64,000 nucleotides of DNA. Source: Octopus vulgaris (lineage: Eukaryota). Made by a program: the position numbers and the translations under genes. Under the pieces are notes generated by a model. That model was not told the origin of the DNA. It did no database searches and saw only the letters and a list, made by a program, of their open reading frames with translations. Positions 1 through 49,435 of the stretch are shown here, one piece after another (position 1 is the first letter of the stretch; every line of letters begins with the position of its first letter). The stretch spans positions 9,424,001-9,488,000 of the forward strand of contig OX597841.1 in the NCBI GenBank assembly GCA_951406725.2, in the 5' to 3' direction.

Positions 1-599
1 TGTGTATGTATATATATATATGTGTGTATGTATATATATGTGTGTTTGTGTGTGTATGTATATATGTGTGTGTGTGTGTGTGTAAGTATATATATGTGTG
101 TTTGTGTGTGTGTGTATGTATATATGTGTGTGTGTGTGTATGTATATATATGTGTGTGTGTGCATGTATATATATGTGTGTGTGTATGTGTATATATGCG
201 TGTGTGTATGTATATATATATATATATGTTATTATTTATTTATCTAAAGGCTTATTATATACATATATATATATATGTGTGTGTGTGTATATATATATAT
301 ATATGTTATTATTTATTTATCTAAAGGTTTATTATATACATATATATATATATGTGTGTATGTATATATATGTGTGTGTGTATGTGTATATATATATATA
401 TATGTGTTATTATTTAATTATCTAAAAGTTATTATATACATATATATATATATGTATGTGTGTATGTATATATGTGTGTGTGTGTGTATGTATATATGTT
501 TGTGTGTGCATGTATATATATGTGTGTGTGTATGTATATATATATATATATGTTATTATTTATTTATCCAAAGGTTTATTATATACATATATATATATA

Positions 600-632
<33 letters not shown>

Positions 633-2313
633 GTTATTATTTATTTATCTAAAGGTTTATTATATAATATATATATATATGTATGTGTGTGTATATATAT
701 ATGTGTGTGTGTATGTATATATATATATATATATGTTATTATTTATTTATGTAAAGGTTTATTATATACATATATATATATATGTATGTGTGTATGTATA
801 TATATGTGTGTGTGTGTATGTATATATATGTGTGTGTGTGTTTCATGTTCGTCTCTGTTGCGTTGCATTCTTTCCTTCTGTGGCTGGCTGATTCGGAGCG
901 GATCTCAGAATTAAACAGCCGAAATCTGCGATGAGGGATCAGTTTCTGACTGAGGATGAAGGCTTTGAATGACCCGTTTGTCTTTTTGTTCGTCCCTTCG
1001 TGTATTTCACGTTAGTTATTTATGTAAAGGTTTATATATATATTTCGCAGCGTACGTTTGCAGGAAATAACTATATAAGCATTTTTATGTTATATCATAT
1101 CAAAAACCCCTGCACGATGTCTTTAAACTATTTTCTTTCCTTCGCTCATTGACTTCGTTGCCAAATTGTTTTGGCGCCTTATTTTCTCCCATGCCTCTCT
1201 GATTCCTTCTCTCCCTCTCTTTGATCACTGCTTCTTCTCTGATTCCTTCTCTCCATTTCTCTCTCTCGGTCACTGCTTCTGTCCTCGTTGTTCTACCCTC
1301 CTTGGTCCCCTTGACAACGCTTAGCCCCTCCTCTCTCTTACCCTCTTGCGACTTGCTGCCTCAGCCATTCTCTTTCCATCGGCCACTTGTTCAACATGTG
1401 TCTTATCAAAAAATGGTAATTATTTTTCCACGCTCATCTGATATTGTTTTTGTGCTCTCTTTTGTGTTAAAGCCATAGGGCGCCTGTGTCATCCGAATTT
1501 TTTAACTGTTACCGTCGCACATTGGGAGTAGTTGATGCCATCTTTGAGAATCGAGCGGGGCAGAGATGGCAAGAATGGAGACGATGAAAGAAGTCACCCC
1601 CACCTGGTGAGATTGACCGGGAGGAGGTTTTGCATGAATTAACCTGAAAGTTCGGAGTGATCCCAGGTGCAAGTTCTGACAACCGGCAGCAAGGGCTCAA
1701 TGAATGGAGACGGAGAACCCGGTGAAGAGGTACGAGAGGAGGTTTTCAGGATGTCCTTAAAAGAAGTTCTACAGATCTTCAGGAAAAGCTCGTCTTCTAG
1801 GCTGTAGTTTATGGCTCGGGATTTCTGGAACCACCATTGACACTGCCTTACGCTTATTGTCCAACCCCATATACTGCATTAATATTTCTTGTACTTTGCA
1901 CACATTTATATTCTGTTATTCTTTTATATGTTTCAGCCTTGAGAGTTGTGGCCATGCTGGATCATGGTGTGTGTGTGTGTGTGTGTGTGTCTATCTGTCT
2001 GTCTGTCTGTATGTATATATGTATATGTATGTGTGATGGAACAATAATATTTTCAACAGATGTGTTGCAAATGTATCTGATTGACCACTCACCACCTGCT
2101 TCAATACTGTGTGTAGGTGTGTATGTATGTTGTGTATGTATGTATATGTATGTATGTGCCAACATGATGTTGTCGAAAGGGCAGCTGCTGAGCAACAATC
2201 TTTTTGTGCATGGCACAAAAGATTGTACAGCAGCTGACCTGGCTTCATCAAACCCAAGCCCGCAGGTGGGACTACCCACTATATACAAGACCACCACAGC
2301 AAACAGACCCAGG

Positions 2314-3108
2314 ATGGACACCGCCGGCAACAACGTACACCTCACCTCGATGCTCCTACTGAACATCAGAGGGCTGCAAACACTCAGTAACAGGACAAAA
2401 ATCCCGTTCCTGAGAGACTTTGTTGCATGCAATCAAGCCTTATGCATAGCACTTACGGAAACGCACCTGAAACCGGACATAGCAGATGCGGAGTTACACA
2501 TACCACAGTATGCTGTACTACGGACCGACAGAAAAGAAAGGAGTCATGGAGGTGTTGCTATGTACATCCGTGAGGACCTCACACCCCAGGTCCTCTTGTC
2601 ATACTCAAACTCGGTGTGTGACACACTAATTGTACATATTAGGCAACTTGATGTAGTTGTGTGTGCTACATATCGCCCTCCAGATGCCCCAAGCCATGTG
2701 GGCAAGTTTGAAGACTGCCTTATAAAAATAGAAGAAGTTCTAACCACATTAGAACAACACATAAGTGTACTTCTTATGGGAGACTTCAATCTGCCCAGTG
2801 TCAGATGGCCCGAGGGCCTTTCTCTCCCAGGAATGACAAGATGTGAACGAGGACAGGCGAGGTCCCTCCTGAACCTCATCAACACCCTGTACATGGAGCA
2901 GGTAATACTCCAACCAACCAGGGCAGGTAACACACTGGATCTCTGCTTCACAAATGACATGGATCTCATCCATAATGTGAAAGTGACACCGACACTACTC
3001 TCGGATCACAACATGATAGAGCTGACCAAAAGAGTACGGGCCAAAAGAGAGCACGGACATGCAGCCTACAAGAAACCCTCAGAATCTTTCCAGCTTGAAC
3101 TACCATAA
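2314..3108 (+). pseudogene. APE-type endonuclease part of LINE ORF2 (copy 1)
   Basis: Motifs LNIRG, ALTETHL, GGVAMY, YRPP, GDFN, LDLCF, SDH; runs out of frame after SDH. Confidence 0.9.
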
Positions 3109-3581
3109 GGCAAACTGGAAACAAATTGAGAAAGAGATCCTCAAACAAAACTGGCCTAAATGTCTCTCCTCGCCAGACATCGACGTGAAACTTCAACAAT
3201 TCATGTCTGTAATGCAAGCCATATGCTACAAATGTGTCCCAGAGAGAAAGGCCACTGTACACAAGAACAAAATCCCCAGAGAGAGGAAAATTTTAATGAG
3301 ACGGCGTACAAAATTTTCAAATCGCCTAAGCAAACAGATTGAAAGCAGTGAAAAGTCCCGCCTAAAAATAAAACTGTTGGAAATCGAAAAATGTCTGCAA
3401 CTCTCTCATGAAAAAGAAAGAGCAGACAAAGAAGCCTGGGCTATAGACAACATAAAATCTAACCCCAGAGCTTTCTACAGGTATGCCAAAGAAACAGCTA
3501 CGGTGCACTGTAGAATAGGGCCACTCCTCGAAAAGGATGGCACACTTACAGGAAAACCAATGAGGGTAAGTGAAATACTGA

Positions 3582-5727
3582 ATGAGCAATTCAAGAGTGT
3601 TTTCACTCCACCCCTTGGGCATCTCCAAATCACCAATCCAACTGACTTTTTTTACCACTGCAGATATAAAATCAGAGGCGGCGACGATAGATTACATCGA
3701 TATAAAGGAAGACGATGTAATCAAGGCTATAGATGAAATGAAAACAGACTCAGCTACTGGCCCCGATGGATTCCCGGCAATCCTCCTAAAAACATGTAAG
3801 AGAGTCCTAGCAAGACCACTGCAGTTCCTCTTTCAGAGCTTCCTTGCAGCTGGCAAACTTCCAAGAAAACTGAAGGAAGGTAAAATATGCCCCATTCATA
3901 AAGGAGGTAGCAGAGCGGAAGCCAAGAACTACAGACCTATCTCTCTGACCTCACACATCAGCAAGGTCATGGAACGAATAGTCAGAAGGAAGCTGATCAC
4001 CTTCCTTGAAGAGAATGACTTACTGCCCGACACCCAACATGGTTTCCGACCAGGGAGAAGCTGTTTAACTCAGCTCCTACAACACTATGACTGGGTGCTG
4101 AAACGGCTGCTCAACCACTCAAATGTGGAAGTGATATATCTCGACTTTGCAAAGGCCTTTGATAAAGTCGATCATGGAATGATATGTCACAAACTGCGTG
4201 ATCTCAACATAGTTGGAAAACTGGGAGAATGGCTCCATGACTTTCTGAAAGATAGAAGTCAGGTGGTAGTAGCCAATGGGGCCACTTCCATTAACACGCA
4301 AATAGTGAGCGGTGTCCCGCAGGGCACTGTTCTGGGACCACTACTGTTCATAATGGCCCTCTCAGACATGCCCTCAGCCACGCAGAGAGCCACGATCACA
4401 AGTTATGCAGATGATACAAAAGTTTCACAGGCAATACAGAACCCTGAGGACACTAAGCACCTGCAATGTGAGCTGGACAAAATATACAAGTGGGCTGAAA
4501 AGAATAGCATGCAGTTCAATGCTGAAAAGTTTCAAGCTCTATACTATCAGCATGCAAAACTAAATGCAATACCCAATGAATACACCGGACCCGGAGGAAT
4601 AGCAATCCCAGAGGCACAATCAGTGCGTGACCTAGGTATTTACATGAGTGATGACGCGACCTTTCGTGTACATGTTGCTAAATTGGCAATGAAATGTAGA
4701 AGACTGGCCGGATGGATCCTCAGAACCTTTAGAACAAGAGAACAAGAAACCATGATGGTCCTCTGGAGGACACTTGTCCTAAGCCACTTTGACTACTGCT
4801 CTCAGTTATGGTCACCATCCAGTGTCAAGTTGATCACAGAGCTCGAGGCGATCCAACGTAGCTACACGAAGAAGATAGCCTCTATGCAGAATGTAAGCTA
4901 CTGGGAAAGACTGAAGAGATTAAAACTGTATTCCCTGGAGCGTAGGCGGGAAAGATATGCCATAATATACATCTGGAAGATCCTGGAGGGACGTGTCCTA
5001 AACTTTGGCATCGAGAGTTACGCAAATGCCAGAACTGGGCGCCACTGCGTGGTGCCTAGGACTTCCATTAACACGCAAATAGTGAGCGGTGTCCCGCAGG
5101 GCACTGTTCTGGGACCACTACTGTTCATAATGGCCCTCTCAGACATGCCCTCAGCCACGCAAGAGAGCCACGATCACAAGTTATGCAGATGATACAAAAG
5201 TTTCACAAGCAATACAGAAACCTGAGGACACTAAGCACCTGCAATGTGAGCTGGACAAAATATACAAGTGGGCTGAAAAGAATAGCATGCAGTTCAATGC
5301 TGAAAAGTTTCAAGCTCTATACTATCAGCATGCAAAACTAAATGCAATACCCAATGAATACACCGGACCCGGAGGAATAGCAATCCCAGAGGCACAATCA
5401 GTGCGTGACCTAGGTATTTACATGAGTGATGACGCGACCTTTCGTGTACATGTTGCTAAATTGGCAATGAAATGTAGAAGACTGGCCGGATGGATCCTCA
5501 GAACCTTTAGAACAAGAGAACAAGAAACCATGATGGTCCTCTGGAGGACACTTGTCCTAAGCCACTTTGACTACTGCTCTCAGTTATGGTCACCATCCAG
5601 TGTCAAGTTGATCACAGAGCTCGAGGCGATCCAACGTAGCTACACGAAGAAGATAGTCTCTATGCAGAATGTAAGCTACTGGGAAAGCTGCATCGAACTC
5701 TCTCATGCACCAAATGGCAGTTGCTAA
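3582..5727 (+). pseudogene. Reverse transcriptase part of ORF2 (copy 1) with internal duplication
   Basis: RT motifs intact to ~5060, then a repeat of the GVPQG...YW segment. Confidence 0.88.
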
Positions 5728-6045
5728 AAAGCTTTCGTGAAGTAAAACCAAGTAGCAACACCAAATGGCGGTGCCCCAGCATGGCCACAGCTCATAAGCT
5801 GAAACTAGAATCAATCGATCAATCAATCAATCATGTCTCCAAAAAAGATTTTTCGTTTCATGTTCGTCTCTGTTGCGTTGCATTCTTTCCTTCTGTGGCT
5901 GGCTGATTCGGAGCGGATCTCAGAATTGAACGGCCGAAATCTGCGATGAGGGATCAGTTTCTGACTGAAGAATGAAGGCTTTGAATGACCCGTTTGTCTT
6001 TTTGTTCGTCCCTTCGTGTATTTCACGTTATTTATTTATGTAAAT

Positions 6046-6089
<44 letters not shown>

Positions 6090-6848
6090 ATGTATGTATA
6101 ATGTATGTTTATGTATGTATGTATGTATATATATATATATATGTGTGTATGTATATATATATGTGTGTGTGTATGTATATATATATATATGTGTGTGTGT
6201 GTGTATGTATATATGTGTGTGTATGTATATATGTATGTGTGTGTGTATATATATATATATATGTGTGTATGTATATATATGTGTGTTTGTGTGTGTATGT
6301 ATATATATGTGTGTGTGTGTGTGTGTAAGTATATATATGTGTGTTTGTGTGTGTGTGTATGTATATATGTGTGTGTGTGTGTATGTATATATATGTGTGT
6401 GTGTGCATGTATATATATGTGTGTGTGTATGTGTATATATGCGTGTGTGTATGTATATATATATATATATGTTATTATTTATTTATCTAAAGGCTTATTA
6501 TATACATATATATATATATGTGTGTGTGTGTATATATATATATATATGTTATTATTTATTTATCTAAAGGTTTATTATATACATATATATATATATGTGT
6601 GTATGTATATATATGTGTGTGTGTGTATGTGTATATATATATATATATGTGTTATTATTTAATTATCTAAAAGTTATTATATACATATATATATATATAT
6701 GTATGTGTGTATGTATATATGTGTGTGTGTGTGTGTATGTATATATGTTTGTGTGTGCATGTATATATATGTGTGTGTGTATGTATATATATATATATAT
6801 GTTATTATTTATTTATCAAAAGGTTTATTATATACATATATATATATA

Positions 6849-6879
<31 letters not shown>

Positions 6880-7849
6880 GTTATTATTTATTTATCTAAA
6901 GGTTTATTATATACATATATATATATATGTATGTGTGTATGTATATATATGTGTGTGTGTATGTATATATATATATATATATATATATGTTATTATTTAT
7001 TTATGTAAAGGTTTATTATATACATATATATATATATGTATGTGTGTATGTATATATATGTGTGTGTGTGTATGTATATATATGTGTGTGTGTGTTTCTT
7101 GTTCGTCTCTGTTCGTCTCTGTTGCGTTGCATTCTTTCCTTCTGTGGCTGGCTGATTCGGAGCGGATCTCAGAATTAAACAGCCGAAATCTGCGATGAGG
7201 GATCAGTTTCTGACTGAGGATGAAGGCTTTGAATGACCCGTTTGTCTTTTTGTTCGTCCCTTCGTGTATTTCACGTTAGTTATTTATGTAAAGGTTTATT
7301 ATATATTTCGCAGCGTACGTGCATAATAACTTCTTTATGTTTATCATATCAAAACCCCTGCACGATGTCTTTAAACTATTTTCTTTCCTTCGCCATTGCT
7401 TCGTTGCCAAATTGTTTTGGCGCCTTTATCTCCCAGCCTCTCTGATTCCTTCTCTCCCTCTCTCTCTTGATCACTGCTTCTTCTCTGATTCCTTCTCTCC
7501 CTCTCTCTCTCTCGGTCACTGCTTCTGTCCTCGCCTTCTACCCTCCTTGGTCCCCTCTCTCTCTTAGCCCCTCCTCTCTCTTACCCTCTTGCGACTTGCT
7601 GCCTCAGCCATTCTCTTTCCATCGGCCACTTGTTCAACATGTGTCTTATCACCGAAAAGGTAATTATTTTTCCACGCTTCCTGATATTGTTTTTGTGTCT
7701 CTCTTTTTGTATTAAAGCCATAGGGCGCCTGTGTCATCCATGTTTTTAACCGTTACCGGTCGCACATTGGCGCACTTGATGCCATCTTTGAGAACGAGCG
7801 GGGCAAAGATGGCAAGAATGGAGACGATGAAAGAAGTCACCCCCACCTG

Positions 7850-8485
7850 GTGGATTCCCGGGAGGAGGTTTTGAGTGAGAAACCTGCCCGGAAAGTGATC
7901 CCAGGTGCAAGTTCTCCAACCGGCAGCAAGGGCCATGGAGACGGAGAACCCGGTGAAGAGGTAGAGGGAGGAGGAAGAACTAAAAGAAGGACTGGAAGAG
8001 CTAAAGGAAAAGCTCAAGCAGGACCAAAGGGTGAAACAACCAGGAATAGAAGTGGAACCGCAAAAGATGGAAACAAACAGCGCACACGGGTGTGTAGGTT
8101 CTACCTGAGAGGTTCCTGCTGGCATGGAAAGCAAGGTGCAGGCTGCCGCTTTGCACATCGGGGACCCTGCCACAGAGACACGAGGCAGATGGACAAACCA
8201 TCAACACAAGGAAAAAGGATGGACCACGCACCACCTGCCCCAAAGCGGAGGTACGCAGATGTTGTGCGTGCCACAAACCGCCAACATGATGTTGTCGAAA
8301 GGGCAGCTGCTGAGCAACAATCTTTTTTGTGCATGGCACAAAAGATTGTACAGCAGCTGACCTGGCTTCATCAAACCCAAGCCCGCAGGTGGGACTACCC
8401 ACTATATACAAGACCACCACAGCAAACAGACCCAGGATGGACACCGCCGGCAACAACGTACACCTCACCTCGATGCTTCTACTGA
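7850..8485 (+). CDS. LINE ORF1-like protein with CCCH-type zinc finger (copy 2)
   Basis: Basic Gly/Arg/Lys-rich region, then C-x7-C-x8-C-x3-H (CRFYLRGSCWHGKQGAGCRFAH). No in-frame ATG at the N-terminus. Confidence 0.65.
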   Translation: MDSREEVLSEKPARKVIPGASSPTGSKGHGDGEPGEEVEGGGRTKRRTGRAKGKAQAGPKGETTRNRSGTAKDGNKQRTRVCRFYLRGSCWHGKQGAGCRFAHRGPCHRDTRQMDKPSTQGKRMDHAPPAPKRRYADVVRATNRQHDVVERAAAEQQSFLCMAQKIVQQLTWLHQTQARRWDYPLYTRPPQQTDPGWTPPATTYTSPRCFY

Positions 8486-9138
8486 ACATCAGAGGGCTGC
8501 AAACACTCAGTAACAGGACAAAAATCCCGTTCCTGACAGACTTTGTTGCATGCAATCAAGCCTTATGCATAGCACTTACGGAAATGCACCTGAAACCGGA
8601 CATAGCAGATGCGGAGTTACACATACCACAGTATGCTGTACTACGGACCGACAGAAAAGAAAGGAGTCATGGAGGTGTTGCTATGTACATCCGTGAGGAC
8701 CTCACACCCCAGGTCCTCTTGTCATACTCAAACTCGGTGTGTGACACACTAATTGTACATATTAGGCAACTTGATGTAGTTGTGTGTGCTACATATCGCC
8801 CTCCAGATGCCCCAAGCCATGTGGGCAAGTTTGAAGACTGCCTTATAAAAATAGAAGAAGTTCTAACCACATTAGAACAACACATAAGTGTACTTCTTAT
8901 GGGAGACTTCAATCTGCCCAGTGTCAGATGGCCCGAGGGCCTTCCTCTCCCAGGAATGACAAGATGTGAACGAGGACAGGCGAGGTCCCTCCTGAACCTC
9001 ATCAACACCCTGTACATGGAGCAGGTAATACTCCAACCAACCAGGGCAGGTAACACACTGGATCTCTGCTTCACAAATGACATGGATCTCATCTATAATG
9101 TGAAAGTGACACCGACACTACTCTCGGATCACACATGA
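8437..9138 (+). pseudogene. APE endonuclease part of ORF2 (copy 2)
   Basis: Same motifs; ends just after SDH. Confidence 0.9.
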
Positions 9139-9703
9139 TAGAGCTGACCAAAAGAGTACGGGCCAAAAGAGAGCACGGACATGCAGCCTACAAGAAACCC
9201 TCAGAATCTTTCCAGCTTGAACTACCATAAGGCAAACTGGAAACAAATTGAGAAAGAGATCCTCAAACAAAACTGGCCTAAATGTCTCTCCTCGCCAGAC
9301 ATCGACGTGAAACTTCAACAATTCATGTCTGTAATGCAAGCCATATGCTACAAATGTGTCCCAGAGAGAAAGGCCACTGTACACAAGAACAAAATCCCCA
9401 GAGAGAGGAAAATTTTAATGAGACGGCGTACAAAATTTTCAAATCGCCTAAGCAAACAGATTGAAAGCAGTGAAAAGTCCCGCCTAAAAATAAAACTGTT
9501 GGAAATCGAAAAATGTCTGCAACTCTCTCATGAAAAGGAAAGAGCAGACAAAGAAGCCTGGGCTATAGACAACATAAAATCTAACCCCAGAGCTTTCTAC
9601 AGGTATGCCAAAGAAACAGCTACGGTGCACTGTAGAATAGGGCCACTCCTCGAAAAGGATGGCACACTTACAGGAAAACCAATGAGGGTAAGTGAAATAC
9701 TGA

Positions 9704-11437
9704 ATGAGCAATTCAAGAGTGTTTTCACTCCACCCCTTGGGCATCTCCAAATCACCAATCCAACTGACTTTTTTTACCACTGCAGATATAAAATCAGAGG
9801 CGGCGACGATAGATTACATCGATATAAAGGAAGACGATGTAATCAAGGCTATAGATGAAATGAAAACAGACTCAGCTACTGGCCCCGATGGATTCCCGGC
9901 AATCCTCCTAAAAACATGTAAGAGAGTCCTAGCAAGACCACTGCAGTTCCTCTTTCAGAGCTTCCTTGCAGCTGGCAAACTTCCAAGAAAACTGAAGGAA
10001 GGTAAAATATGCCCCATTCATAAAGGAGGTAGCAGAGCGGAAGCCAAGAACTACAGACCTATCTCTCTGACCTCACACATCAGCAAGGTCATGGAACGAA
10101 TAGTCAGAAGGAAGCTGATCACCTTCCTTGAAGAGAATGACTTACTGCCCGACACCCAACATGGTTTCCGACCAGGGAGAAGCTGTTTGACTCAGCTCCT
10201 ACAACACTATGACTGGGTGCTGAAACGGCTGCTCAACCACTCAAATGTGGAAGTGATATATCTCGACTTTGCAAAGGCCTTTGATAAAGTCGATCATGGA
10301 ATGATATGTCACAAGCTGCGTGATCTCAACATAGTTGGAAAACTGGGAGAATGGCTCCATGACTTTCTGAAAGATAGAAGTCAGGTGGTAGTAGCCAATG
10401 GGGCCACTTCCATTAACACGCAAATAGTGAGCGGTGTCCCGCAGGGCACTGTTCTGGGACCACTACTGTTCATAATGGCCCTCTCAGACATGCCCTCAGC
10501 CACGCAGAGAGCCACGATCACAAGTTATGCAGATGATACAAAAGTTTCACAGGCAATACAGAACCCTGAGGACACTAAGCACCTGCAATGTGAGCTGGAC
10601 AAAATATACAAGTGGGCTGAAAAGAATAGCATGCAGTTCAATGCTGAAAAGTTTCAAGCTCTATACTATCAGCATGCAAAACTAAATGCAATACCCAATG
10701 AATACACCGGACCCGGAGGAATAGCAATCCCAGAGGCACAATCAGTGCGTGACCTAGGTATTTACATGAGTGATGACGCGACCTTTCGTGTACATGTTGC
10801 TAAATTGGCAATGAAATGTTGAAGACTGGCCGGATGGATCCTCAGAACCTTTAGAACAAGAGAACAAGAAACCATGATGGTCCTCTGGAGGACACTTGTC
10901 CTAAGCCACTTTGACTACTGCTCTCAGTTATGGTCACCATCCAGTGTCAAGTTGATCACAGAGCTCGAGGCGATCCAACGTAGCTACACGAAGAAGATAG
11001 CCTCTATGCAGAATGTAAGCTACTGGGAAAGACTGAAGAGATTAAAACTGTATTCCCTGGAGCGTAGGCGGGAAAGATATGCCATAATATACATCTGGAA
11101 GATCCTGGAGGGACGTGTCCTAAACTTTGGCATCGAGAGTTACGCAAATGCCAGAACTGGGCGCCACTGCGTGGTGCCTAGGACTCCAAACTCGCCATCA
11201 AGATGTAGGACAAGATTCTGTGATAGCCTGGGCTTCCGAGGCCCACAGCTCTTCAATATCCTCCCGAAGAACCTGAGAGACCTGCATGGGGTGGATGCAG
11301 ATGTCTTTAAAATGAAACTGGATCTCTTCCTGTCAGGTGTCCCAGATGAACCAACTTCACGGCAGGAGGTGCAGATGAGGGCAGCTGCATCGAACTCTCT
11401 CATGCACCAAATGGCAGTTGCTAAAAAGCTTTCGTGA
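9704..11437 (+). pseudogene. RT part of ORF2 (copy 2), in-frame stop at 10820
   Basis: AGA to TGA change. Confidence 0.9.
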
Positions 11438-11745: not shown

Positions 11746-11787
<42 letters not shown>

Positions 11788-12201: not shown

Positions 12202-12232
<31 letters not shown>

Positions 12233-12527: not shown

Positions 12528-12558
<31 letters not shown>

Positions 12559-35959: not shown

Positions 35960-35990
<31 letters not shown>

Positions 35991-37451: not shown

Positions 37452-37527
37452 CCTGGCTTCATCAAACCCAAGCCCGCAGGTGGGACTACCCACTATATAC
37501 AAGACCACCACAGCAAACAGACCCAGG

Positions 37528-38795: not shown

Positions 38796-40528
38796 ATGAG
38801 CAATTCAAGAGTGTTTTCACTCCACCCCTTGGGCATCTCCAAATCACCAATCCAACTGACTTTTTTTACCACTGCAGATATAAAATCAGAGGCGGCGACG
38901 ATAGATTACATCGATATAAAGGAAGACGATGTAATCAAGGCTATAGATGAAATGAAAACAGACTCAGCTACTGGCCCCGATGGATTCCCGGCAATCCTCC
39001 TAAAAGCATGTAAGAGAGTCCTAGCAAGACCACTGCAGTTCCTCTTTCAGAGCTTCCTTGCAGCTGGCAAACTTCCAAGAAAACTGAAGGAAGGTAAAAT
39101 ATGCCCCATTCATAAAGGAGGTAGCAGAGCGGAAGCCAAGAACTACAGACCTATCTCTCTGACCTCACACATCAGCAAGGTCATGGAACGAATAGTCAGA
39201 AGGAAGCTGATCACCTTCTTGAAGAGAATGACTTGCTGCCCGACACCCAACATGGTTTCCGACCAGGGAGAAGCTGTTTAACTCAGCTCCTACAACACTA
39301 TGACTGGGTGCTGAAACGGCTGCTCAACCACTCAAATGTGGAAGTGATATATCTCGACTTTGCAAAGGCCTTTGATAAAGTCGATCATGGAATGATATGT
39401 CACAAACTGCGTGATCTCAACATAGTTGGAAAACTGGGAGAATGGCTCCATGACTTTCTGAAAGATAGAAGTCAGGTGGTAGTAGCCAATGGGGCCACTT
39501 CCATTAACACGCAAATAGTGAGCGGTGTCCCGCAGGGCACTGTTCTGGGACCACTACTGTTCATAATGGCCCTCTCAGACATGCCCTCAGCCACGCAAAG
39601 AGCCACGATCACAAGTTATGCAGATGATACAAAAGTTTCACAGGCAATACAGAACCCTGAGGACACTAAGCACCTGCAATGTGAGCTGGACAAAATATAC
39701 AAGTGGGCTGAAAAGAATAGCATGCAGTTCAATGCTGAAAAGTTTCAAGCTCTATACTATCAGCATGCAAAACTAAATGCAATACCCAATGAATACACCG
39801 GACCCGGAGGAATAGCAATCCCAGAGGCACAATCAGTGCGTGACCTAGGTATTTACATGAGTGATGACGCGACCTTTCGTGTACATGTTGCTAAATTGGC
39901 AATGAAATGTAGAAGACTGGCCGGATGGATCCTCAGAACCTTTAGAACAAGAGAACAAGAAACCATGATGGTCCTCTGGAGGACACTTGTCCTAAGCCAC
40001 TTTGACTACTGCTCTCAGTTATGGTCACCATCCAGTGTCAAGTTGATCACAGAGCTCGAGGCGATCCAACGTAGCTACACGAAGAAGATAGCCTCTATGC
40101 AGAATGTAAGCTACTGGGAAAGACTGAAGAGATTAAAACTGTATTCCCTGGAGCGTAGGCGGGAAAGATATGCCATAATATACATCTGGAAGATCCTGGA
40201 GGGACGTGTCCTAAACTTTGGCATCGAGAGTTACGCAAATGCCAGAACTGGGCGCCACTGCGTGGTGCCTAGGACTCCAAACTCGCCATCAAGATGTAGG
40301 ACAAGATTCTGTGATAGCCTGGGCTTCCGAGGCCCACAGCTCTTCAATATCCTCCCGAAGAACCTGAGAGACCTGCATGGGGTGGATGCAGATGTCTTTA
40401 AAATGAAACTGGATCTCTTCCTGTCAGGTGTCCCAGATGAACCAACTTCACGGCAGGAGGTGCAGATGAGGGCAGCTGCATCGAACTCTCTCATGCACCA
40501 AATGGCAGTTGCTAAAAAGCTTTCGTGA
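38796..40528 (+). pseudogene. RT part of ORF2 (copy 7), frameshifted
   Basis: Split into 161-aa and 431-aa ORFs. Confidence 0.9.
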
Positions 40529-40836
40529 AGTAAAACCAAGTAGCAACACCAAATGGCGGTGCCCCAGCATGGCCACAGCTCATAAGCTGAAACTAGAATC
40601 AATCGATCAATCAATCAATCATGTCTCCAAAAAAGATTTTTCGTTTCATGTTCGTCTCTGTTGCGTTGCATTCTTTCCTTCTGTGGCTGGCTGATTCGGA
40701 GCGGATCTCAGAATTGAACGGCCGAAATCTGCGATGAGGGATCAGTTTCTGACTGAAGAATGAAGGCTTTGAATGACCCGTTTGTCTTTTTGTTCGTCCC
40801 TTCGTGTATTTCACGTTATTTATTTATGTAAATGTT

Positions 40837-40880
<44 letters not shown>

Positions 40881-41616
40881 ATGTATGTATATATGTATGT
40901 ATGTATGTATGTATATATATATATGTGTGTATGTATATATATATGTGTGTGTGTATGTATATATATATATGTGTGTGTGTGTATGTATATATGTGTGTGT
41001 ATGTATATATGTATGTGTGTGTGTATGTATATATATATATGTGTGTATGTATATATATGTGTGTTTGTGTGTGTATGTATATATATGTGTGTGTGTGTGT
41101 GTAAGTATATACATGTGTGTTTGTGTGTGTGTGTATGTATATATGTGTGTGTGTGTGTATGTATATATATGTGTGTGTGTGCATGTATATATATGTGTGT
41201 GTGTATGTGTATATATGCGTGTGTGTATGTATATATATATATATATGTTATTATTTATTTATCTAAAGGCTTATTATATACATATATATATATATGTGTG
41301 TGTGTGTATATATATATATATATGTTATTATTTATTTATCTAAAGGTTTATTATATACATATATATATATATGTGTGTATGTATATATATGTGTGTGTGT
41401 ATGTGTATATATATATATATATGTGTTATTATTTAATTATCTAAAAGTTATTATATACATATATATATATATGTATGTGTGTATGTATATATGTGTGTGT
41501 GTGTATGTATATATGTTTGTGTGTGCATGTATATATATGTGTGTGTGTATGTATATATATATATATATGTTATTATTTATTTATCCAAAGGTTTATTATA
41601 TACATATATATATATA

Positions 41617-41647
<31 letters not shown>

Positions 41648-42601
41648 GTTATTATTTATTTATCTAAAGGTTTATTATATACATATATATATATATGTAT
41701 GTGTGTATGTATATATATGTGTGTGTGTATGTATATATATATATATATATGTTATTATTTATTTATGTAAAGGTTTATTATATACATATATATATATATG
41801 TATGTGTGTATGTATATATATGTGTGTGTGTGTATGTATATATATGTGTGTGTGTGTTTCATGTTCGTCTCTGTTGCGTTGCATTCTTTCCTTCTGTGGC
41901 TGGCTGATTCGGAGCGGATCTCAGAATTAAACAGCCGAAATCTGCGATGAGGGATCAGTTTCTGACTGAGGATGAAGGCTTTGAATGACCCGTTTGTCTT
42001 TTTGTTCGTCCCTTCGTGTATTTCACGTTATTTATTTATGTAAAGGTTTATTATATATTTCGCAGCGTACGTGCATAATAACTTCTTTATGTTTATCATA
42101 TCAAAACCCCTGCACGATGTCTTTAAACTATTTTCTTTCCTTCGCCATTGCTTCGTTGCCAAATTGTTTTGGCGCCTTTTTCTCCCAGCCTCTCTGATTC
42201 CTTCTCTCCCTCTCTCTCTTGATCACTGCTTCTTCTCTGATTCCTTCTCTCCCTCTCTCTCTCTCGGTCACTGCTTCTGTCCTCGCCTTCTACCCTCCTT
42301 GGTCCCCTCTCTCTCTTAGCCCCTCCTCTCTCTTACCCTCTTGCGACTTGCTGCCTCAGCCATTCTCTTTCCATCGGCCACTTGTTCAACATGTGTCTTA
42401 TCACCGAAAAGGTAATTATTTTTCCACGCTTGCTGATATTGTTTTTGTGTCTCTCTTTTTGTGTTAAAGCCATAGGGCGCCTGTGTCATCCATGTTTTTA
42501 ACCGTTACCGGTCGCACATTGGCGCACTTGATGCCATCTTTGAGAACGAGCGGGGCAAAGATGGCAAGAATGGAGACGATGAAAGAAGTCACCCCCACCT
42601 G

Positions 42602-43237
42602 GTGGATTCCCGGGAGGAGGTTTTGAGTGAGAAACCTGCCCGGGTAGTGATCCCAGGTGCAAGTTCTCCAACCGGCAGCAAGGGCCATGGAGACGGAGAA
42701 CCCGGTGAAGAGGTAGAGGGAGGAGGAAGAACTAAAAGAAGGACTGGAAGAGCTAAAGGAAAAGCTCAAGCAGGACCAAAGGGTGAAACAACCAGGAATA
42801 GAAGTGGAACCGCAAAAGATGGAAACAAACAGCGCACACGGGTGTGTAGGTTCTACCTGAGAGGTTCCTGCTGGCATGGAAAGCAAGGTGCAGGCTGCCG
42901 CTTTGCACATCGGGGACCCTGCCACAGAGACACGAGGCAGATGGACAAACCATCAACACAAGGAAAAAGGATGGACCACGCACCACCTGCCCCAAAGCGG
43001 AGGTACGCAGATGTTGTGCGTGCCACAAACCGCCAACATGATGTTGTCGAAAGGGCAGCTGCTGAGCAACAATCTTTTTTGTGCATGGCACAAAAGATTG
43101 TACAGCAGCTGACCTGGCTTCATCAAACCCAAGCCCGCAGGTGGGACTACCCACTATATACAAGACCACCACAGCAAACAGACCCAGGATGGACACCGCC
43201 GGCAACAACGTACACCTCACCTCGATGCTCCTACTGA
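42602..43237 (+). CDS. LINE ORF1-like protein, CCCH finger (copy 8)
   Basis: As copy 3. Confidence 0.65.
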   Translation: MDSREEVLSEKPARVVIPGASSPTGSKGHGDGEPGEEVEGGGRTKRRTGRAKGKAQAGPKGETTRNRSGTAKDGNKQRTRVCRFYLRGSCWHGKQGAGCRFAHRGPCHRDTRQMDKPSTQGKRMDHAPPAPKRRYADVVRATNRQHDVVERAAAEQQSFLCMAQKIVQQLTWLHQTQARRWDYPLYTRPPQQTDPGWTPPATTYTSPRCSY

Positions 43238-43959
43238 ACATCAGAGGGCTGCAAACACTCAGTAACAGGACAAAAATCCCGTTCCTGACAGACTTTGTTG
43301 CATGCAATCAAGCCTTATGCATAGCACTTACGGAAACGCACCTGAAACCGGACATAGCAGATGCGGAGTTACACATACCACAGTATGCTGTACTACGGAC
43401 CGACAGAAAAGAAAGGAGTCATGGAGGTGTTGCTATGTACATCCGTGAGGACCTCACACCCCAGGTCCTCTTGTCATACTCAAACTCGGTGTGTGACACA
43501 CTAATTGTACATATTAGGCAACTTGATGTAGTTGTGTGTGCTACATATCGCCCTCCAGATGCCCCAAGCCATGTGGGCAAGTTTGAAGACTGCCTTATAA
43601 AAATAGAAGAAGTTCTAACCACATTAGAACAACACATAAGTGTACTTCTTATGGGAGACTTCAATCTGCCCAGTGTCAGATGGCCCGAGGGCCTTTCTCT
43701 CCCAGGAATGACAAGATGTGAACGAGGACAGGCGAGGTCCCTCCTGAACCTCATCAACACCCTGTACATGGAGCAGGTAATACTCCAACCAACCAGGGCA
43801 GGTAACACACTGGATCTCTGCTTCACAAATGACATGGATCTCATCTATAATGTGAAAGTGACACCGACACTACTCTCGGATCACAACATGATAGAGCTGA
43901 CCAAAAGAGTACGGGCCAAAAGAGAGCACGGACATGCAGCCTACAAGAAACCCTCATAA
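43189..43959 (+). pseudogene. APE endonuclease part of ORF2 (copy 8)
   Basis: As copy 3, with a slightly earlier TAA. Confidence 0.9.
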
Positions 43960-44455
43960 TCTTTCCAGCTTGAACTACCATAAGGCAAACTGGAAACAAA
44001 TTGAGAAAGAGATCCTCAAACAAAACTGGCCTAAATGTCTCTCCTCGCCAGACATCGACGTGAAACTTCAACAATTCATGTCTGTAATGCAAGCCATATG
44101 CTACAAATGTGTCCCAGAGAGAAAGGCCACTGTACACAAGAACAAAATCCCCAGAGAGAGGAAAATTTTAATGAGACGGCGTACAAAATTTTCAAATCGC
44201 CTAAGCAAACAGATTGAAAGCAGTGAAAAGTCCCGCCTAAAAATAAAACTGTTGGAAATCGAAAAATGTCTGCAACTCTCTCATGAAAAGAAAGAGCAGA
44301 CAAAGAAGCCTGGGCTATAGACAACATAAAATCTAACCCCAGAGCTTTCTACATGTATGCCAAAGAAACAGCTACGGTGCACTGTAGAATAGGGCCACTC
44401 CTCGAAAAGGATGGCACACTTACAGGAAAACCAATGAGGGTAAGTGAAATACTGA

Positions 44456-46189
44456 ATGAGCAATTCAAGAGTGTTTTCACTCCACCCCTTGGGCATCTCC
44501 AAATCACCAATCCAACTGACTTTTTTTACCACTGCAGATATAAAATCAGAGGCGGCGACGATAGATTACATCGATATAAAGGAAGACGATGTAATCAAGG
44601 CTATAGATGAAATGAAAACAGACTCAGCTACTGGCCCCGATGGATTCCCGGCAATCCTCCTAAAAGCATGTAAGAGAGTCCTAGCAAGACCACTGCAGTT
44701 CCTCTTTCAGAGCTTCCTTGCAGCTGGCAAACTTCCAAGAAAACTGAAGGAAGGTAAAATATGCCCCATTCATAAAGGAGGTAGCAGAGCGGAAGCCAAG
44801 AACTACAGACCTATCTCTCTGACCTCACACATCAGCAAGGTCATGGAACGAATAGTCAGAAGGAAGCTGATCACCTTCCTTGAAGAGAATGACTTGCTGC
44901 CCGACACCCAACATGGTTTCCGACCAGGGAGAAGCTGTTTAACTCAGCTCCTACAACACTATGACTGGGTGCTGAAACGGCTGCTCAACCACTCAAATGT
45001 GGAAGTGATATATCTCGACTTTGCAAAGGCCTTTGATAAAGTCGATCATGGAATGATATGTCACAAACTGCGTGATCTCAACATAGTTGGAAAACTGGGA
45101 GAATGGCTCCATGACTTTCTGAAAGATAGAAGTCAGGTGGTAGTAGCCAATGGGGCCACTTCCATTAACACGCAAATAGTGAGCGGTGTCCCGCAGGGCA
45201 CTGTTCTGGGACCACTACTGTTCATAATGGCCCTCTCAGACATGCCCTCAGCCACGCAGAGAGCCACGATCACAAGTTATGCAGATGATACAAAAGTTTC
45301 ACAGGCAATACAGAACCCTGAGGACACTAAGCACCTGCAATGTGAGCTGGACAAAATATACAAGTGGGCTGAAAAGAATAGCATGCAGTTCAATGCTGAA
45401 AAGTTTCAAGCTCTATACTATCAGCATGCAAAACTAAATGCAATACCCAATGAATACACCGGACCCGGAGGAATAGCAATCCCAGAGGCACAATCAGTGC
45501 GTGACCTAGGTATTTACATGAGTGATGACGCGACCTTTCGTGTACATGTTGCTAAATTGGCAATGAAATGTAGAAGACTGGCCGGATGGATCCTCAGAAC
45601 CTTTAGAACAAGAGAACAAGAAACCATGATGGTCCTCTGGAGGACACTTGTCCTAAGCCACTTTGACTACTGCTCTCAGTTATGGTCACCATCCAGTGTC
45701 AAGTTGATCACAGAGCTCGAGGCGATCCAACGTAGCTACACGAAGAAGATAGCCTCTATGCAGAATGTAAGCTACTGGGAAAGACTGAAGAGATTAAAAC
45801 TGTATTCCCTGGAGCGTAGGCGGGAAAGATATGCCATAATATACATCTGGAAGATCCTGGAGGGACGTGTCCTAAACTTTGGCATCGAGAGTTACGCAAA
45901 TGCCAGAACTGGGCGCCACTGCGTGGTGCCTAGGACTCCAAACTCGCCATCAAGATGTAGGACAAGATTCTGTGATAGCCTGGGCTTCCGAGGCCCACAG
46001 CTCTTCAATATCCTCCCGAAGAACCTGAGAGACCTGCATGGGGTGGATGCAGATGTCTTTAAAATGAAACTGGATCTCTTCCTGTCAGGTGTCCCAGATG
46101 AACCAACTTCACGGCAGGAGGTGCAGATGAGGGCAGCTGCATCGAACTCTCTCATGCACCAAATGGCAGTTGCTAAAAAGCTTTCGTGA
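44456..46189 (+). CDS. Non-LTR reverse transcriptase (copy 8)
   Basis: Same 577-aa ORF. Confidence 0.93.
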   Translation: MSNSRVFSLHPLGISKSPIQLTFFTTADIKSEAATIDYIDIKEDDVIKAIDEMKTDSATGPDGFPAILLKACKRVLARPLQFLFQSFLAAGKLPRKLKEGKICPIHKGGSRAEAKNYRPISLTSHISKVMERIVRRKLITFLEENDLLPDTQHGFRPGRSCLTQLLQHYDWVLKRLLNHSNVEVIYLDFAKAFDKVDHGMICHKLRDLNIVGKLGEWLHDFLKDRSQVVVANGATSINTQIVSGVPQGTVLGPLLFIMALSDMPSATQRATITSYADDTKVSQAIQNPEDTKHLQCELDKIYKWAEKNSMQFNAEKFQALYYQHAKLNAIPNEYTGPGGIAIPEAQSVRDLGIYMSDDATFRVHVAKLAMKCRRLAGWILRTFRTREQETMMVLWRTLVLSHFDYCSQLWSPSSVKLITELEAIQRSYTKKIASMQNVSYWERLKRLKLYSLERRRERYAIIYIWKILEGRVLNFGIESYANARTGRHCVVPRTPNSPSRCRTRFCDSLGFRGPQLFNILPKNLRDLHGVDADVFKMKLDLFLSGVPDEPTSRQEVQMRAAASNSLMHQMAVAKKLS

Positions 46190-46941
46190 AGTAAAACCAA
46201 GTAGCAACACCAAATGGCGGTGCCCCAGCATGGCCACAGCTCATAAGCTGAAACTAGAATCAATCGATCAATCAATCAATCATGTCTCCAAAAAAGATTT
46301 TTCGTTTCATGTTCGTCTCTGTTGCGTTGCATTCTTTCCTTCTGTGGCTGGCTGATTCGGAGCGGATCTCAGAATTGAACGGCCGAAATCTGCGATGAGG
46401 GATCAGTTTCTGACTGAAGAATGAAGGCTTTGAATGACCCGTTTGTCTTTTTGTTCGTCCCTTCGTGTATTTCACGTTATTTATTTATGTAAATGTTTAT
46501 TATATATATATATATATTATATATATATATATATATGTGTATGTATGTATATATGTATGTATGTATGTATGTATATATATATATGTGTGTATGTATATAT
46601 ATATGTGTGTGTGTATGTATATGTGTGTGTGTGTGTATATATATGTATGTGTGTGTGTGTATGTGTGTATGTATATATATATATGTGTGTATGTATATAT
46701 ATATGTGTGTTTGTGTGTGTATGTATATATATGTGTGTGTGTGTGTGTAAGTATATATATGTGTGTGTGTTGTGTGTGTGTGTATGTATATATGTGTGTG
46801 TGTGTGTATGTATATATATGTGTGTGTGTGCATGTATATATATGTGTGTGTGTATGTGTATATATGCGTGTGTATGTATATATATATATATATGTTATTA
46901 TTTATTTATCTAAAGGCTTATTATATACATATATATATATA

Positions 46942-46972
<31 letters not shown>

Positions 46973-47269
46973 GTTATTATTTATTTATCTAAAGGTTTAT
47001 TATATACATATATATATATATGTGTGTATGTATATATATGTGTGTGTGTATGTGTATATATATATATATATATGTGTTATTATTTAATTATCTAAAAGTT
47101 ATTATATACATATATATATATATGTATGTGTGTATGTATATATGTGTGTGTGTGTGTATGTATATATGTTTGTGTGTGCATGTATATATATGTGTGTGTG
47201 TATGTATATATATATATATATGTTATTATTTATTTATCCAAAGGTTTATTATATACATATATATATATA

Positions 47270-47300
<31 letters not shown>

Positions 47301-47733
47301 GTTATTATTTATTTATCTAAAGGTTTATTATATACATATATATATATATGTATGTGTGTATGTATATATATGTGTGTGTGTATGTATATATATATATATA
47401 TATGTTATTATTTATTTATGTAAAGGTTTATTATATACATATATATATATATGTATGTGTGTATGTATATATATGTGTGTGTGTATGTATATATATGTGT
47501 GTGTGTGTATGTATATATATGTGTGTGTGTGTTTCATGTTCGTCTCTGTTGCGTTGCATTCTTTCCTTCTGTGGCTGGCTGATTCGGAGCGGATCTCAGA
47601 ATTAAACAGCCGAAATCTGCGATGAGGGATCAGTTTCTGACTGAGGATGAAGGCTTTGAATGACCCGTTTGTCTTTTTGTTCGTCCCTTCGTGTATTTCA
47701 CGTTAGTTATTTATGTAAAGGTTTATTATATAT

Positions 47734-49278
47734 TTCGCAGCGTACGTGCATAATAACTTCTTTATGTTTATCATATCAAAACCCCTGCACGATGTCTTTA
47801 AACTATTTTCTTTCCTTCGCCATTGCTTCGTTGCCAAATTGTTTTGGCGCCTTTTTCTCCCAGCCTCTCTGATTCCTTCTCTCCCTCTCTCTCTTGATCA
47901 CTGCTTCTTCTCTGATTCCTTCTCTCCCTCTCTCTCTCTCGGTCACTGCTTCTGTCCTCGCCTTCTACCCTCCTTGGTCCCCTCTCTCTCTTAGCCCCTC
48001 CTCTCTCTTACCCTCTTGCGACTTGCTGCCTCAGCCATTCTCTTTCCATCGGCCACTTGTTCAACATGTGTCTTATCACCGAAAAGGTAATTATTTTTCC
48101 ACGCTTGCTGATATTGTTTCTGTGTCTCTCTTTTTGTGTTAAAGCCATAGGGCGCCTGTGTCATCCATGTTTTTAACCGTTACTGTTTTTAACCGTTACC
48201 GGTCGCACATTGGCGCACTTGATGCCATCTTTGAGAACGAGCGGGGCAAAGATGGCAAGAATGGAGACGATGAAAGAAGTCACCCCCACCTGGTGGATTT
48301 CCGGGAGGAGGTTTTGAGTGAGAAACCTGCCCGGGAACTGATCCCAGGTGCAAGTTCTCCAACCGGCAGCAAGGGCCATGGAGACGGAGAACCCGGTGAA
48401 GAGGTAGAGGGAGGAGGAAGAACTAAAAGAAGGACTGGAAGAGCTAAAGGAAAAGCTCAAGCAGGACCAAAGGGTGAAACAACCAGGAATAGAAGTGGAA
48501 CCGCAAAAGATGGAAACAAACAGCGCACACGGGTGTGTAGGTTCTACCTGAGAGGTTCCTGCTGGCATGGAAAGCAAGGTGCAGGCTGCCGCTTTGCACA
48601 TCGGGGACCCTGCCACAGAGACACGAGGCAGATGGACAAACCATCAACACAAGGAAAAAGGATGGACCACGCACCACCTGCCCCAAAGCGGAGGTACGCA
48701 GATGTTGTGCGTGCCACAAACCGCCAACATGATGTTGTCGAAAGGGCAGCTGCTGAGCAACAATCTTTTTTGTGCATGGCACAAAAGATTGTACAGCAGC
48801 TGACCTGGCTTCATCAAACCCAAGCCCGCAGGTGGGACTACCCACTATATACAAGACCACCACAGCAAACAGACCCAGGATGGACACACCGGCAACAACG
48901 TACACCTCACCTCGATGCTCCGACTGAACATCAGAGGGCTGCAAACACTCAGTAACAGGACAAAAATCCCGTTCCTGAGAGACTTTGTTGCATGCAATCA
49001 AGCCTTATGCATAGCACTTACGGAAACGCACCTGAAACCGGACATAGCAGATGCGGAGTTACACATACCACAGTATGCTGTACTACGGACCGACAGAAAA
49101 GAAAGGAGTCATGGAGGTGTTGCTATGTACATCCGTGAGGACCTCACACCCCAGGTCCTCTTGTCATACTCAAACTCGGTGTGTGACACACTAATTGTAC
49201 ATATTAGGCAACTTGATGTAGTTGTGTGTGCTACATATCGCCCTCCAGATGCCCCAAGCCATGTGGGCAAGTTTGAAG
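47734..49278 (+). mobile_element. CR1-group LINE, array copy 9, 3'-truncated within the endonuclease
   Basis: Sequence follows the LINE to ...GGCAAGTTTGAAG, then jumps into module B (AGCGGATCTC). Confidence 0.92.
48167..48955 (+). CDS. LINE ORF1 variant with ATG start created by a 16-bp duplication (copy 9)
   Basis: TGTTTTTAACCGTTAC is tandemly duplicated at 48168-48199. The C-terminus is shifted by a deletion near 48887. Confidence 0.5.
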   Translation: MFLTVTVFNRYRSHIGALDAIFENERGKDGKNGDDERSHPHLVDFREEVLSEKPARELIPGASSPTGSKGHGDGEPGEEVEGGGRTKRRTGRAKGKAQAGPKGETTRNRSGTAKDGNKQRTRVCRFYLRGSCWHGKQGAGCRFAHRGPCHRDTRQMDKPSTQGKRMDHAPPAPKRRYADVVRATNRQHDVVERAAAEQQSFLCMAQKIVQQLTWLHQTQARRWDYPLYTRPPQQTDPGWTHRQQRTPHLDAPTEHQRAANTQ

Positions 49279-49435
49279 CGGATCTCAGAATTGAACGGCC
49301 GAAATCTGCGATGAGGGATCAGTTTCTGACTGAAGAATGAAGGCTTTGAATGACCCGTTTGTCTTTTTGTTCGTCCCTTCGTGTATTTCACGTTATTTAT
49401 TTTTAAATAAAAGAATTTATAAAGATGAAGTATGA

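What the first reader, a model, noticed from the sequence alone, without database searches (positions are those of the whole stretch)
1..49400. ~50-kb macrosatellite whose unit is a whole LINE bracketed by LTR-like direct repeats
Seen: at least 9 head-to-tail units with almost no divergence. Each LINE is flanked by ~175-bp direct repeats (A and B) and separated from the next by an almost identical ~1-kb TA/TG spacer. I see no target-site duplication and no 5'-truncation series. Known: target-primed reverse transcription normally gives dispersed, variably 5'-truncated copies without LTRs. Inference: a composite cassette (repeat-LINE-repeat-microsatellite) was amplified recently at the DNA level by unequal exchange or rolling-circle replication. 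It could act as a satellite, a heterochromatin block or a small-RNA source.
Basis: partly seen in the sequence, partly recalled or inferred. Interest (0 to 1): 0.8.

Follow-up and report, generated by a model that had tools for sequence, protein, structure and literature searches.

The report
Tandem chain of whole octopus LINEs
In this assembled octopus sequence, at least nine near-identical copies of one broken LINE jumping gene sit head to tail; the "LTR-like" repeats are likely the element's own 5'-end repeats, and the chain was likely multiplied by DNA recombination, a known route from transposon to satellite DNA.

Summary
The array is in the sequence: nine LINE starts in 1-49278, period about 5.66 kb, seven intact-length bodies. 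U3-U8 differ by 2-9 substitutions per 4.2 kb, U2 by 14-20. The element has a CCCH ORF1, an APE+RT ORF2 and an (AATC)n tail (CR1-like; tree not run). The 201-bp repeats are not LTRs. A and B differ at 6 fixed sites. Public contigs show many diverged module copies, TG microsatellite before the module, and a module-to-5'-leader join. An older relative in the window ends without the module. Re-phased, one unit is likely one full-length element (lead-B-spacer-A-leader-ORF1-ORF2-tail) joined tail to head. All 8 bodies reaching ORF2's middle share two frameshifts that many other genomic copies lack, and all 8 tail-to-head junctions are alike. So one defective copy was likely amplified as DNA, most likely from a tandem dimer by unequal exchange. 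The right end is not a retrotransposition junction: a cut unit and a 120-bp module piece abut the middle of a host exon. No raw reads were available, so copy number and the tandem junction are unverified. Verdict: a new member of a known kind (TE-derived tandem array).

The parts
1..49396 (+). Head-to-tail array; left end outside the window
1..5832 (+). U1, partial. Error-like stretch 1044-1791, foreign sequence 1792-2157, jump back at 5063 duplicating about 626 bp of RT and losing about 197 bp
5833..11529 (+). U2, full unit; most diverged intact-length body (15 minority substitutions)
11530..17195 (+). U3, full unit
17196..22859 (+). U4, full unit (reference for the anatomy below)
17196..17219 (+). 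24-bp lead; likely 5' terminus or monomer start
   Evidence: lead variants also follow position 19085 in X1 contigs (table 5c)
17220..17421 (+). Module B (upstream 5' repeat)
17422..18434 (+). TA/TG compound microsatellite holding 6 copies of the module's AT-rich end motif
18435..18635 (+). Module A (downstream 5' repeat), joined to the leader
18636..19052 (+). CT-rich 5' leader, with a possible 64-nt GT..AG intron at 18989-19052
   Evidence: splicing not shown
19053..19814 (+). ORF1 (stop to stop, 253 aa) with a CCCH finger; nearest ATG out of frame in U2-U8
19802..22767 (+). ORF2, APE endonuclease + RT, in three frames (breaks near 20480 and 21100)
22836..22859 (+). (AATC)n 3' tail
22860..29303 (+). 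U5, carrying an extra hybrid module (24017-24217) and a second, shorter spacer
29304..34960 (+). U6, full unit
34961..40620 (+). U7, full unit
40621..46281 (+). U8, full unit
46282..49278 (+). U9, cut inside the endonuclease domain; 16-bp duplication at 48168-48199
49279..49396 (+). Last 120 bp of a B-type module, between two breakpoints with 2-5 bp of shared letters
49397..51217 (+). 3' part of the coding exon of an Octopus-specific multicopy gene, cut mid-exon, with two in-frame stops
53034..53790 (+). Older 3' fragment of the same LINE lineage (73% nt identity), ending in an A-rich/TA tract without the module

Best explanation
This is a head-to-tail chain of at least nine near-identical copies of one frameshifted, CR1-like LINE; its 201-bp repeats and TA/TG spacer are likely the element's own 5' end, and the chain was likely expanded by unequal DNA exchange from a tandem pair. 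Step 1 (inferred, about 0.75): a full-length element runs lead-B-spacer-A-leader-ORF1-ORF2-(AATC)n, about 5.66 kb. Its repeated 5' module works like mouse L1 promoter monomers. Step 2 (inferred, about 0.5): one element landed directly against the tail of a sister copy. The likely route is target-primed insertion into the (AATC)n tail, which would hide any duplication. This made the single tail-to-head junction. Step 3 (shared lesions shown; mechanism inferred, about 0.85): the pair was multiplied as DNA, copying both frameshifts and the junction. The hybrid module in U5 is the expected product of a misaligned A-by-B exchange. Step 4 (breakpoints shown; cause inferred): the right end was later trimmed by deletion or template switching into a host exon. 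The array would be a passive, young macrosatellite that cannot encode a full ORF2 protein.
For: Sequence: both frameshift contexts are in 8 of 8 bodies that reach them, and the tail-to-lead junction is alike in 8 of 8. A and B differ at 6 fixed sites against 2-9 substitutions per 4.2 kb among U3-U8. The U5 hybrid module has A's upstream and B's downstream context. Six substitutions are shared between non-adjacent units, as in exchange or conversion. Public contigs (4 runs laid of 20 holders): 47246, 41184, 24387 and 1845 contigs were laid, about a quarter at 90-95% identity, so the family is large and diverged. A-type letters at 22955/22959 lie on 17-36 separate contigs in X1, X2 and X4, more than the array's one A type would give. 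TG microsatellite is the loose end before the module in X1 (6 contigs), X2 (15) and X15 (5). A module-end-to-leader joint is present in X1, X2 and X4 (one contig each). Two lead variants follow a different upstream place (19085) in X1, which marks the lead as a boundary. The 4-nt and 1-nt indels at the two frameshift places are on 3-5 and 4-24 contigs per DNA run. The older relative ends without the module. Weak support only, since the tool warns that contig depth cannot rank parts: summed depth rises 9-17-fold from 5' to 3', then falls 5-8-fold at the module, in 4 of 4 runs. Precedent: PMC5932611 (passages).
Against: The tail-to-lead junction lies in a repeat that the tool skipped (22832-22866), so no independent run confirms even a dimer. 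Family-wide linkage of B-spacer-A was not shown. The module-to-leader joint may be the array's own. X15 (kind guessed) shows only A-type letters on its 3 contigs at each site. Double insertion predicts a target duplication between units and an intact tail at the right end; neither is seen. U1 carries error-like and rearranged stretches, so local assembly quality is uneven. Divergence does not simply rise towards the edges: U1's clean part has 2 substitutions against U4, while U2 has 15.
Confidence: 0.55

Rival explanations
1. Concatemer origin: a full-length cDNA was circularised tail to head and rolled out, or the RT jumped from one RNA to the next, and the multimer was integrated whole at internal breakpoints.
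For: No host DNA or duplication lies between units. The right end is an internal breakpoint with a 120-bp templated piece rather than a tail. Rolling-circle tandems are a proposed route (PMC5932611, passages). R2 proteins jump templates and gave head-to-tail transgene repeats in cells (PMC11371274, passages).
Against: Serial template jumps should give tails of different length, yet all 8 tails are equal in length. A single rolled-out product should start identical, whereas U2 and U9 differ by 7 and 5 substitutions in the first 1528 bp (0-4 in the others), as if a sister copy were involved. No circle was observed.
Confidence: 0.2
2. One reading: an A-headed LINE landed just upstream of the B-type 5' end of another copy or of an independent module element. 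The resulting A-LINE-B-microsatellite cassette was amplified through its direct repeats, as LTR elements are.
For: B-spacer-A linkage outside the array was not shown. B-type letters are absent from X15's 3 contigs at each site. Lead variants occur in another context (19085). The U5 hybrid module looks like a solo repeat left by A-by-B recombination.
Against: A and B are 3% apart, so they were not made by one reverse transcription. Exchange between A and B alone would give shared single modules without a spacer. B-type letters make up 21-42% of summed module depth in three DNA runs (weak measure), so B is not unique to this locus.
Confidence: 0.13
3. Assembly inflation: one to three real copies were unrolled or duplicated by the assembler or by polishing.
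For: U1 has an error-rich stretch, foreign sequence and a jump-back; the right end has two abrupt joins. None of these joins is among the 15 joints shown of 172. No raw reads were offered.
Against: Units carry private and shared substitutions (15 transitions, 12 transversions) and distinct spacer lengths. They keep their own letters where the family majority differs (38 of the 40 rows shown for X1), so polishing did not simply paint the family consensus on them. Assemblers more often collapse than expand such arrays (recalled). 94% of the unit's sampled words are held by runs of two studies, which shows the unit exists but not its number.
Confidence: 0.12

Closest known systems
Tandem TE arrays from double insertion and unequal exchange: the R1 array on the D. 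melanogaster X and the hobo array of 13-19 copies (McGurk & Barbash 2018, PMC5932611; passages read)
   Same: Whole elements head to tail, one junction repeated identically, expansion at the DNA level.
   Different: R1 units are separated by a 33-nt rDNA target duplication and R1 is site-specific. Here no duplication is visible and site specificity is not shown. Most non-LTR tandems in that paper are tail-to-internal (5'-truncated); here the join appears to be to a full 5' end. The right end is not an intact terminus.
Mouse L1Md 5' promoter monomers (Zhou & Smith 2019, PMC6454616; abstract and outline read)
   Same: A repeated module at the LINE 5' end with variable number (2 per unit, 3 in U5) and distinct subtypes (A, B).
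   Different: The modules are separated by a 1-kb microsatellite rather than abutting; promoter activity is untested; the LINE clade differs.
Recently active CR1 LINEs of Octopus vulgaris (Bonar et al. 2026, PMC13282606; parts 1-2 of 3 and a supplement search read)
   Same: 13 families with 787 insertions over 3,207,572 bp (mean 4.08 kb), close to the 4.22-kb body. APE+RT architecture.
   Different: The parts read report no tandem arrays. Their consensus library is outside these tools, so family identity was not checked.
Drosophila telomeric HeT-A/TART/TAHRE arrays (as described in PMC5932611 passages)
   Same: Head-to-tail non-LTR elements with no host DNA between them.
   Different: Those grow by repeated transposition and show varied 5' truncations. 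This array has one junction, shared lesions and an interstitial position.
LTR retrotransposon tandems with shared LTRs (PMC5932611 passages)
   Same: Direct repeats can recombine and leave a solo hybrid copy (U5).
   Different: No integrase, protease or RNase H hits. Two modules plus a spacer lie between bodies, not one shared repeat. A and B are 3% apart.

Membership tests
APE-type non-LTR retrotransposon (LINE) | N-terminal APE endonuclease followed by RT in ORF2 | tested here: met
   Pfam Exo_endo_phos_2 E 9.6e-13, RVT_1 E 2e-31; P0001 aligns over residues 1-973 in three frames
APE-type non-LTR retrotransposon (LINE) | 3' simple-repeat or poly(A) tail | tested here: met
   (AATC)n in 8 of 8 complete 3' ends
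APE-type non-LTR retrotransposon (LINE) | Dispersed multicopy family with 5'-truncated copies | tested here: inconclusive
   Multicopy shown (24387-47246 contigs laid in three DNA runs; old relative in the window). Truncation rests on summed contig depth, which the tool says cannot rank parts
APE-type non-LTR retrotransposon (LINE) | Tail abutting host DNA, with a target-site duplication | tested here: not met
   Right end is an internal breakpoint plus a module piece; left end is outside the window. This concerns the array, not the family
CR1 clade | RT phylogeny groups with CR1 references | not testable with these tools
   No clade-labelled reference sequences were obtained. Nearest named hits are Argonauta hypothetical proteins at 62-63%; 26% to the RTE-type copy in the window
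CR1 clade | APE+RT without RNase H, with a microsatellite tail (features recalled) | tested here: met
   No RNase H hit in Pfam; tail. These features are shared with L2, Daphne and Crack
CR1 clade | ORF1 of a known CR1 type (PHD, RRM or esterase; recalled) | tested here: inconclusive
   Only a below-cutoff CCCH finger (E 0.0026). One of five relatives scanned (P0149) has a weak N-terminal Myb/SANT-like hit, a part missing here
LTR retrotransposon / LTR-bracketed element | Two terminal repeats identical at insertion | tested here: not met
   A and B differ at 6 of 201 sites in every unit, against 0.05-0.2% between U3-U8
LTR retrotransposon / LTR-bracketed element | Integrase, protease and RNase H; TG..CA ends with a 4-6 bp duplication | tested here: not met
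   No such Pfam hits; no duplication at module edges on reading the sequence
Penelope-like or DIRS/Ngaro elements (direct-repeat retroelements) | GIY-YIG endonuclease or tyrosine recombinase | tested here: not met
   APE endonuclease instead; neither domain was found
TE tandem array by double insertion (R1/hobo type) | Head-to-tail whole elements with one junction repeated | tested here: met
   8 of 8 junctions alike
TE tandem array by double insertion (R1/hobo type) | Target duplication between units | tested here: inconclusive
   None visible. It could hide in (AATC)n; the 24-bp lead as host target was not testable because no paralog DNA was available
TE tandem array by double insertion (R1/hobo type) | Copy number confirmed by reads | not testable with these tools
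   All 24 listed runs are kept as contigs
L1Md-type 5' monomer promoter | Repeated module at the 5' end of dispersed copies, variable in number | tested here: inconclusive
   A-to-leader join and many module variants seen; three modules in U5; B-spacer-A outside the array not shown
L1Md-type 5' monomer promoter | Promoter activity | not testable with these tools
   No raw RNA reads or start-site data

The most novel reading that the evidence does not exclude
A full-length LINE cDNA was closed into a circle and amplified by rolling-circle replication into a 50-kb-plus concatemer. The concatemer was pasted into an exon of an expanding octopus gene family, and its last 5' leader now supplies a promoter and spliced first exon to the cut gene (the P0121 gene model). 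That would be a LINE-to-macrosatellite jump in one step, with exaptation, in an animal.
Probability: 0.08. Interest if true: 0.75.

Novelty: new member of a known kind. Interest (0 to 1): 0.38.

Why it matters
It is a clean, young example of a whole LINE turning into a macrosatellite outside Drosophila, in an element not shown to be site-specific. The array keeps markers that make the mechanism testable: one junction, shared lesions, a hybrid module and a broken end. It also shows that near-identical 'full-length' LINE copies can come from DNA duplication rather than retrotransposition. Counts of recently active elements based on low divergence and near-full length could therefore include such copies. 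The repeated 5' module with a microsatellite spacer is a candidate LINE promoter design for cephalopods.

Tried and rejected
(1) Module as host 5' UTR: rejected. Paralogs continue upstream as coding sequence at the junction, so the array abuts mid-exon. (2) Module as the family's 3' end (my reading): dropped after and the old relative. (3) Module as a structured or known RNA: Rfam gave 94 matches, none at gathering score and none on the module; folding z = 0.98, with 167 of 200 shuffles folding as well. (4) Module as the decayed N-terminal part of ORF1: shuffle p = 0.13-0.82 in 6 of 6 tests, and no profile hit. (5) A-to-I editing signature in the amplified copy: among the 40 rows shown, G>A 10 against C>T 12, so no strand bias. 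(6) Expression: no RNA holder listed; X15-X20 are guesses. No splice joint for the possible intron is among the rows shown. (7) Copy number from depth: not possible with contigs. Joints at U1 and at 49278 are not among the 15 rows shown of 172, which proves nothing. (8) No whole genome is held, so the genome-wide and left-end tests were not run. (9) ESM Atlas for ORF1: best score 0.85, lead only. (10) Earlier findings by place and by sequence: none. (11) Nine paper searches listed no report of a whole-LINE tandem array in a cephalopod. The library is open-access only, and most hits were seen as listings only. Other papers opened as passages: PMC10294476, PMC12628747, PMC2881922.
Full report
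OBSERVATION. The array is in the sequence. Self-BLAST gives 12-19.6-kb diagonals at 97-99% identity and a period near 5.66 kb. Nine LINE 5' starts lie between 1044 and 47734; seven bodies are of intact length (4219-4226 bp), U1 is rearranged and U9 is cut at 49278. U3-U8 differ by 2-9 substitutions per 4.2 kb and U2 by 14-20. The repeats are 201 bp, in 18 full copies plus one 120-bp piece. Type A precedes each body and type B follows each tail after a 24-bp lead; they differ at 6 fixed sites. U5 holds an extra hybrid module. Spacers are 1009-1036 bp in 7 of 9 cases and carry repeated copies of the module's end motif. The tail-to-lead junction is alike in 8 of 8, with no visible target duplication.

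THE ELEMENT. ORF1 has a weak CCCH finger; ORF2 has an APE endonuclease and RT; no RNase H, integrase, GIY-YIG or recombinase hit was found. The tail is (AATC)n. The nearest named RT relatives are Argonauta proteins at 62-63%. The flanking protein is identical to one labelled Octopus vulgaris. Among APE-type LINE groups listed as recently active in that species (RTE, CR1, L1-Tx1; which groups carry APE is recalled), CR1's mean length of 4.08 kb fits best (PMC13282606). The RT is only 26% identical to the RTE-type copy in the window. 'CR1-like' is therefore a resemblance; no tree with labelled references could be built. ORF2 is broken by two frameshifts present in 8 of 8 bodies that reach them, and U2, U6, U7 and U8 have further private breaks.

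WHAT THE REPEATS ARE. They are not host sequence: paralogs of the flanking gene continue upstream as coding sequence exactly where the last module piece ends, so the array abuts the middle of an exon. They are not a known or well-folded RNA, nor a decayed ORF1 N-terminus. I first read them as the element's 3' end. Laying public contigs on 18600-23075 (4 of 20 holder runs) changed that. The family is large: 24387-47246 contigs were laid in three DNA runs. A-type letters lie on 17-36 separate contigs, so many diverged modules exist beyond this array. TG microsatellite is the loose end before the module in three runs. The module end joins the 5' leader in X1, X2 and X4. Two lead variants follow a different upstream place in X1, which marks the lead as a boundary. 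The older relative at 53034-53790 ends without a module. Summed depth climbs 9-17-fold from 5' to 3' and falls 5-8-fold at the module in 4 of 4 runs. The tool warns that contig depth cannot rank parts, so I count this as weak. Against this reading: the module-to-leader joint may be the array's own; B-spacer-A was not seen outside the array; X15 (kind guessed) shows only A-type letters; and the tail-to-lead junction fell in a repeat the tool skipped. On balance the module is likely 5'-end sequence, and one unit is likely one full-length element.

HOW IT AROSE. Many other genomic copies differ by a 4-nt and a 1-nt indel at the two frameshift places (table 4), and in 38 of the 40 rows shown the window's letter is the minority in X1. 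The array therefore amplified one particular, defective copy. Equal tails and one junction argue against nine separate reverse transcriptions. The hybrid module in U5 and six substitutions shared between non-adjacent units fit misaligned exchange. At the rate used in PMC13282606 (0.0036 per million years), 2-9 substitutions in 4.2 kb correspond to roughly 0.07-0.3 million years. This is an inference: sequence errors would inflate it and homogenisation would shrink it. For the first junction I favour a tandem pair made by insertion into a sister's tail, following the double-insertion route of PMC5932611 (passages). A circle or template jump remains open, because no duplication separates the units and the right end is an internal breakpoint: U9 is cut in the endonuclease and joined through a 120-bp B piece to the host exon, with 2-5 shared letters at each join.

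ARTEFACT RISK. No raw reads and no whole genome were available. U1 has an error-rich stretch, foreign sequence and a jump-back. Against plain inflation: units carry private and shared variants and distinct spacers, and 94% of the unit's sampled words are held by runs of two studies (one may be the source sample). This shows the unit exists but not how many times. I leave 0.12 for inflation.

COMPARISON AND NOVELTY. It works like the R1 and hobo arrays of Drosophila, and its 5' end resembles L1Md monomers (PMC6454616, abstract). It fails the tests for LTR, Penelope-like and DIRS/Ngaro elements. Nine paper searches listed no cephalopod case; the library is open-access only, and the species' repeat library lies outside these tools. 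One earlier AI note from another genome describes a LINE dimer from double insertion (e1-7633246); I did not test it and do not count it as support.

VERDICT. The LTR-like reading is not supported; DNA-level amplification is supported; copy number is unverified. New member of a known kind, interest 0.38. The boldest reading not excluded is a rolling-circle concatemer whose last leader drives the cut host gene (probability 0.08, interest 0.75).

Noticed in passing
window 18968-19052 (and the same place in each unit): A 64-nt GT..AG stretch in the leader would, if spliced, join an upstream ATG exon in frame to ORF1. The public gene model P0121 uses this donor in U9, spliced to the host exon at 49907. 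No RNA support was seen.
   Followed up: partly
window 48168-48199: A 16-bp duplication unique to U9 puts an ATG in frame with ORF1; in the other 7 units checked the nearest ATG is out of frame. It sits at the place (19085 in U4) where X1 contigs join to lead variants.
   Followed up: partly
window 49397-51217: Octopus-specific multicopy gene: 26 hits, all Octopus, 18 on one 29.2-Mb contig. No Pfam family; NHL beta-propeller lead at 0.93. This copy is cut mid-exon and has two in-frame stops.
   Followed up: partly
window 19053-19814: ORF1 family with a CCCH finger and a conserved C-terminal motif. Three relatives (P0148, P0149, P0151) have about 80 extra N-terminal residues, weakly Myb/SANT-like in P0149, that this element and P0147 lack.
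   Followed up: partly
window 54908-57478 (-): A separate RTE-type LINE (type recalled) with APE, RT and a PHD-like C-terminal part in an 856-codon frame.
   Followed up: no
window 22860-22883 and 49397: The lead reads K-K-I-F in one frame and the host cut site reads K-R-I-F in paralogs. This is probably chance, but it leaves open that the lead is a host target duplication.
   Followed up: no
window 51804-51966; 54177-54295: Short local tandem repeats of 72 bp, 18 bp and 21 bp outside the array.
   Followed up: no
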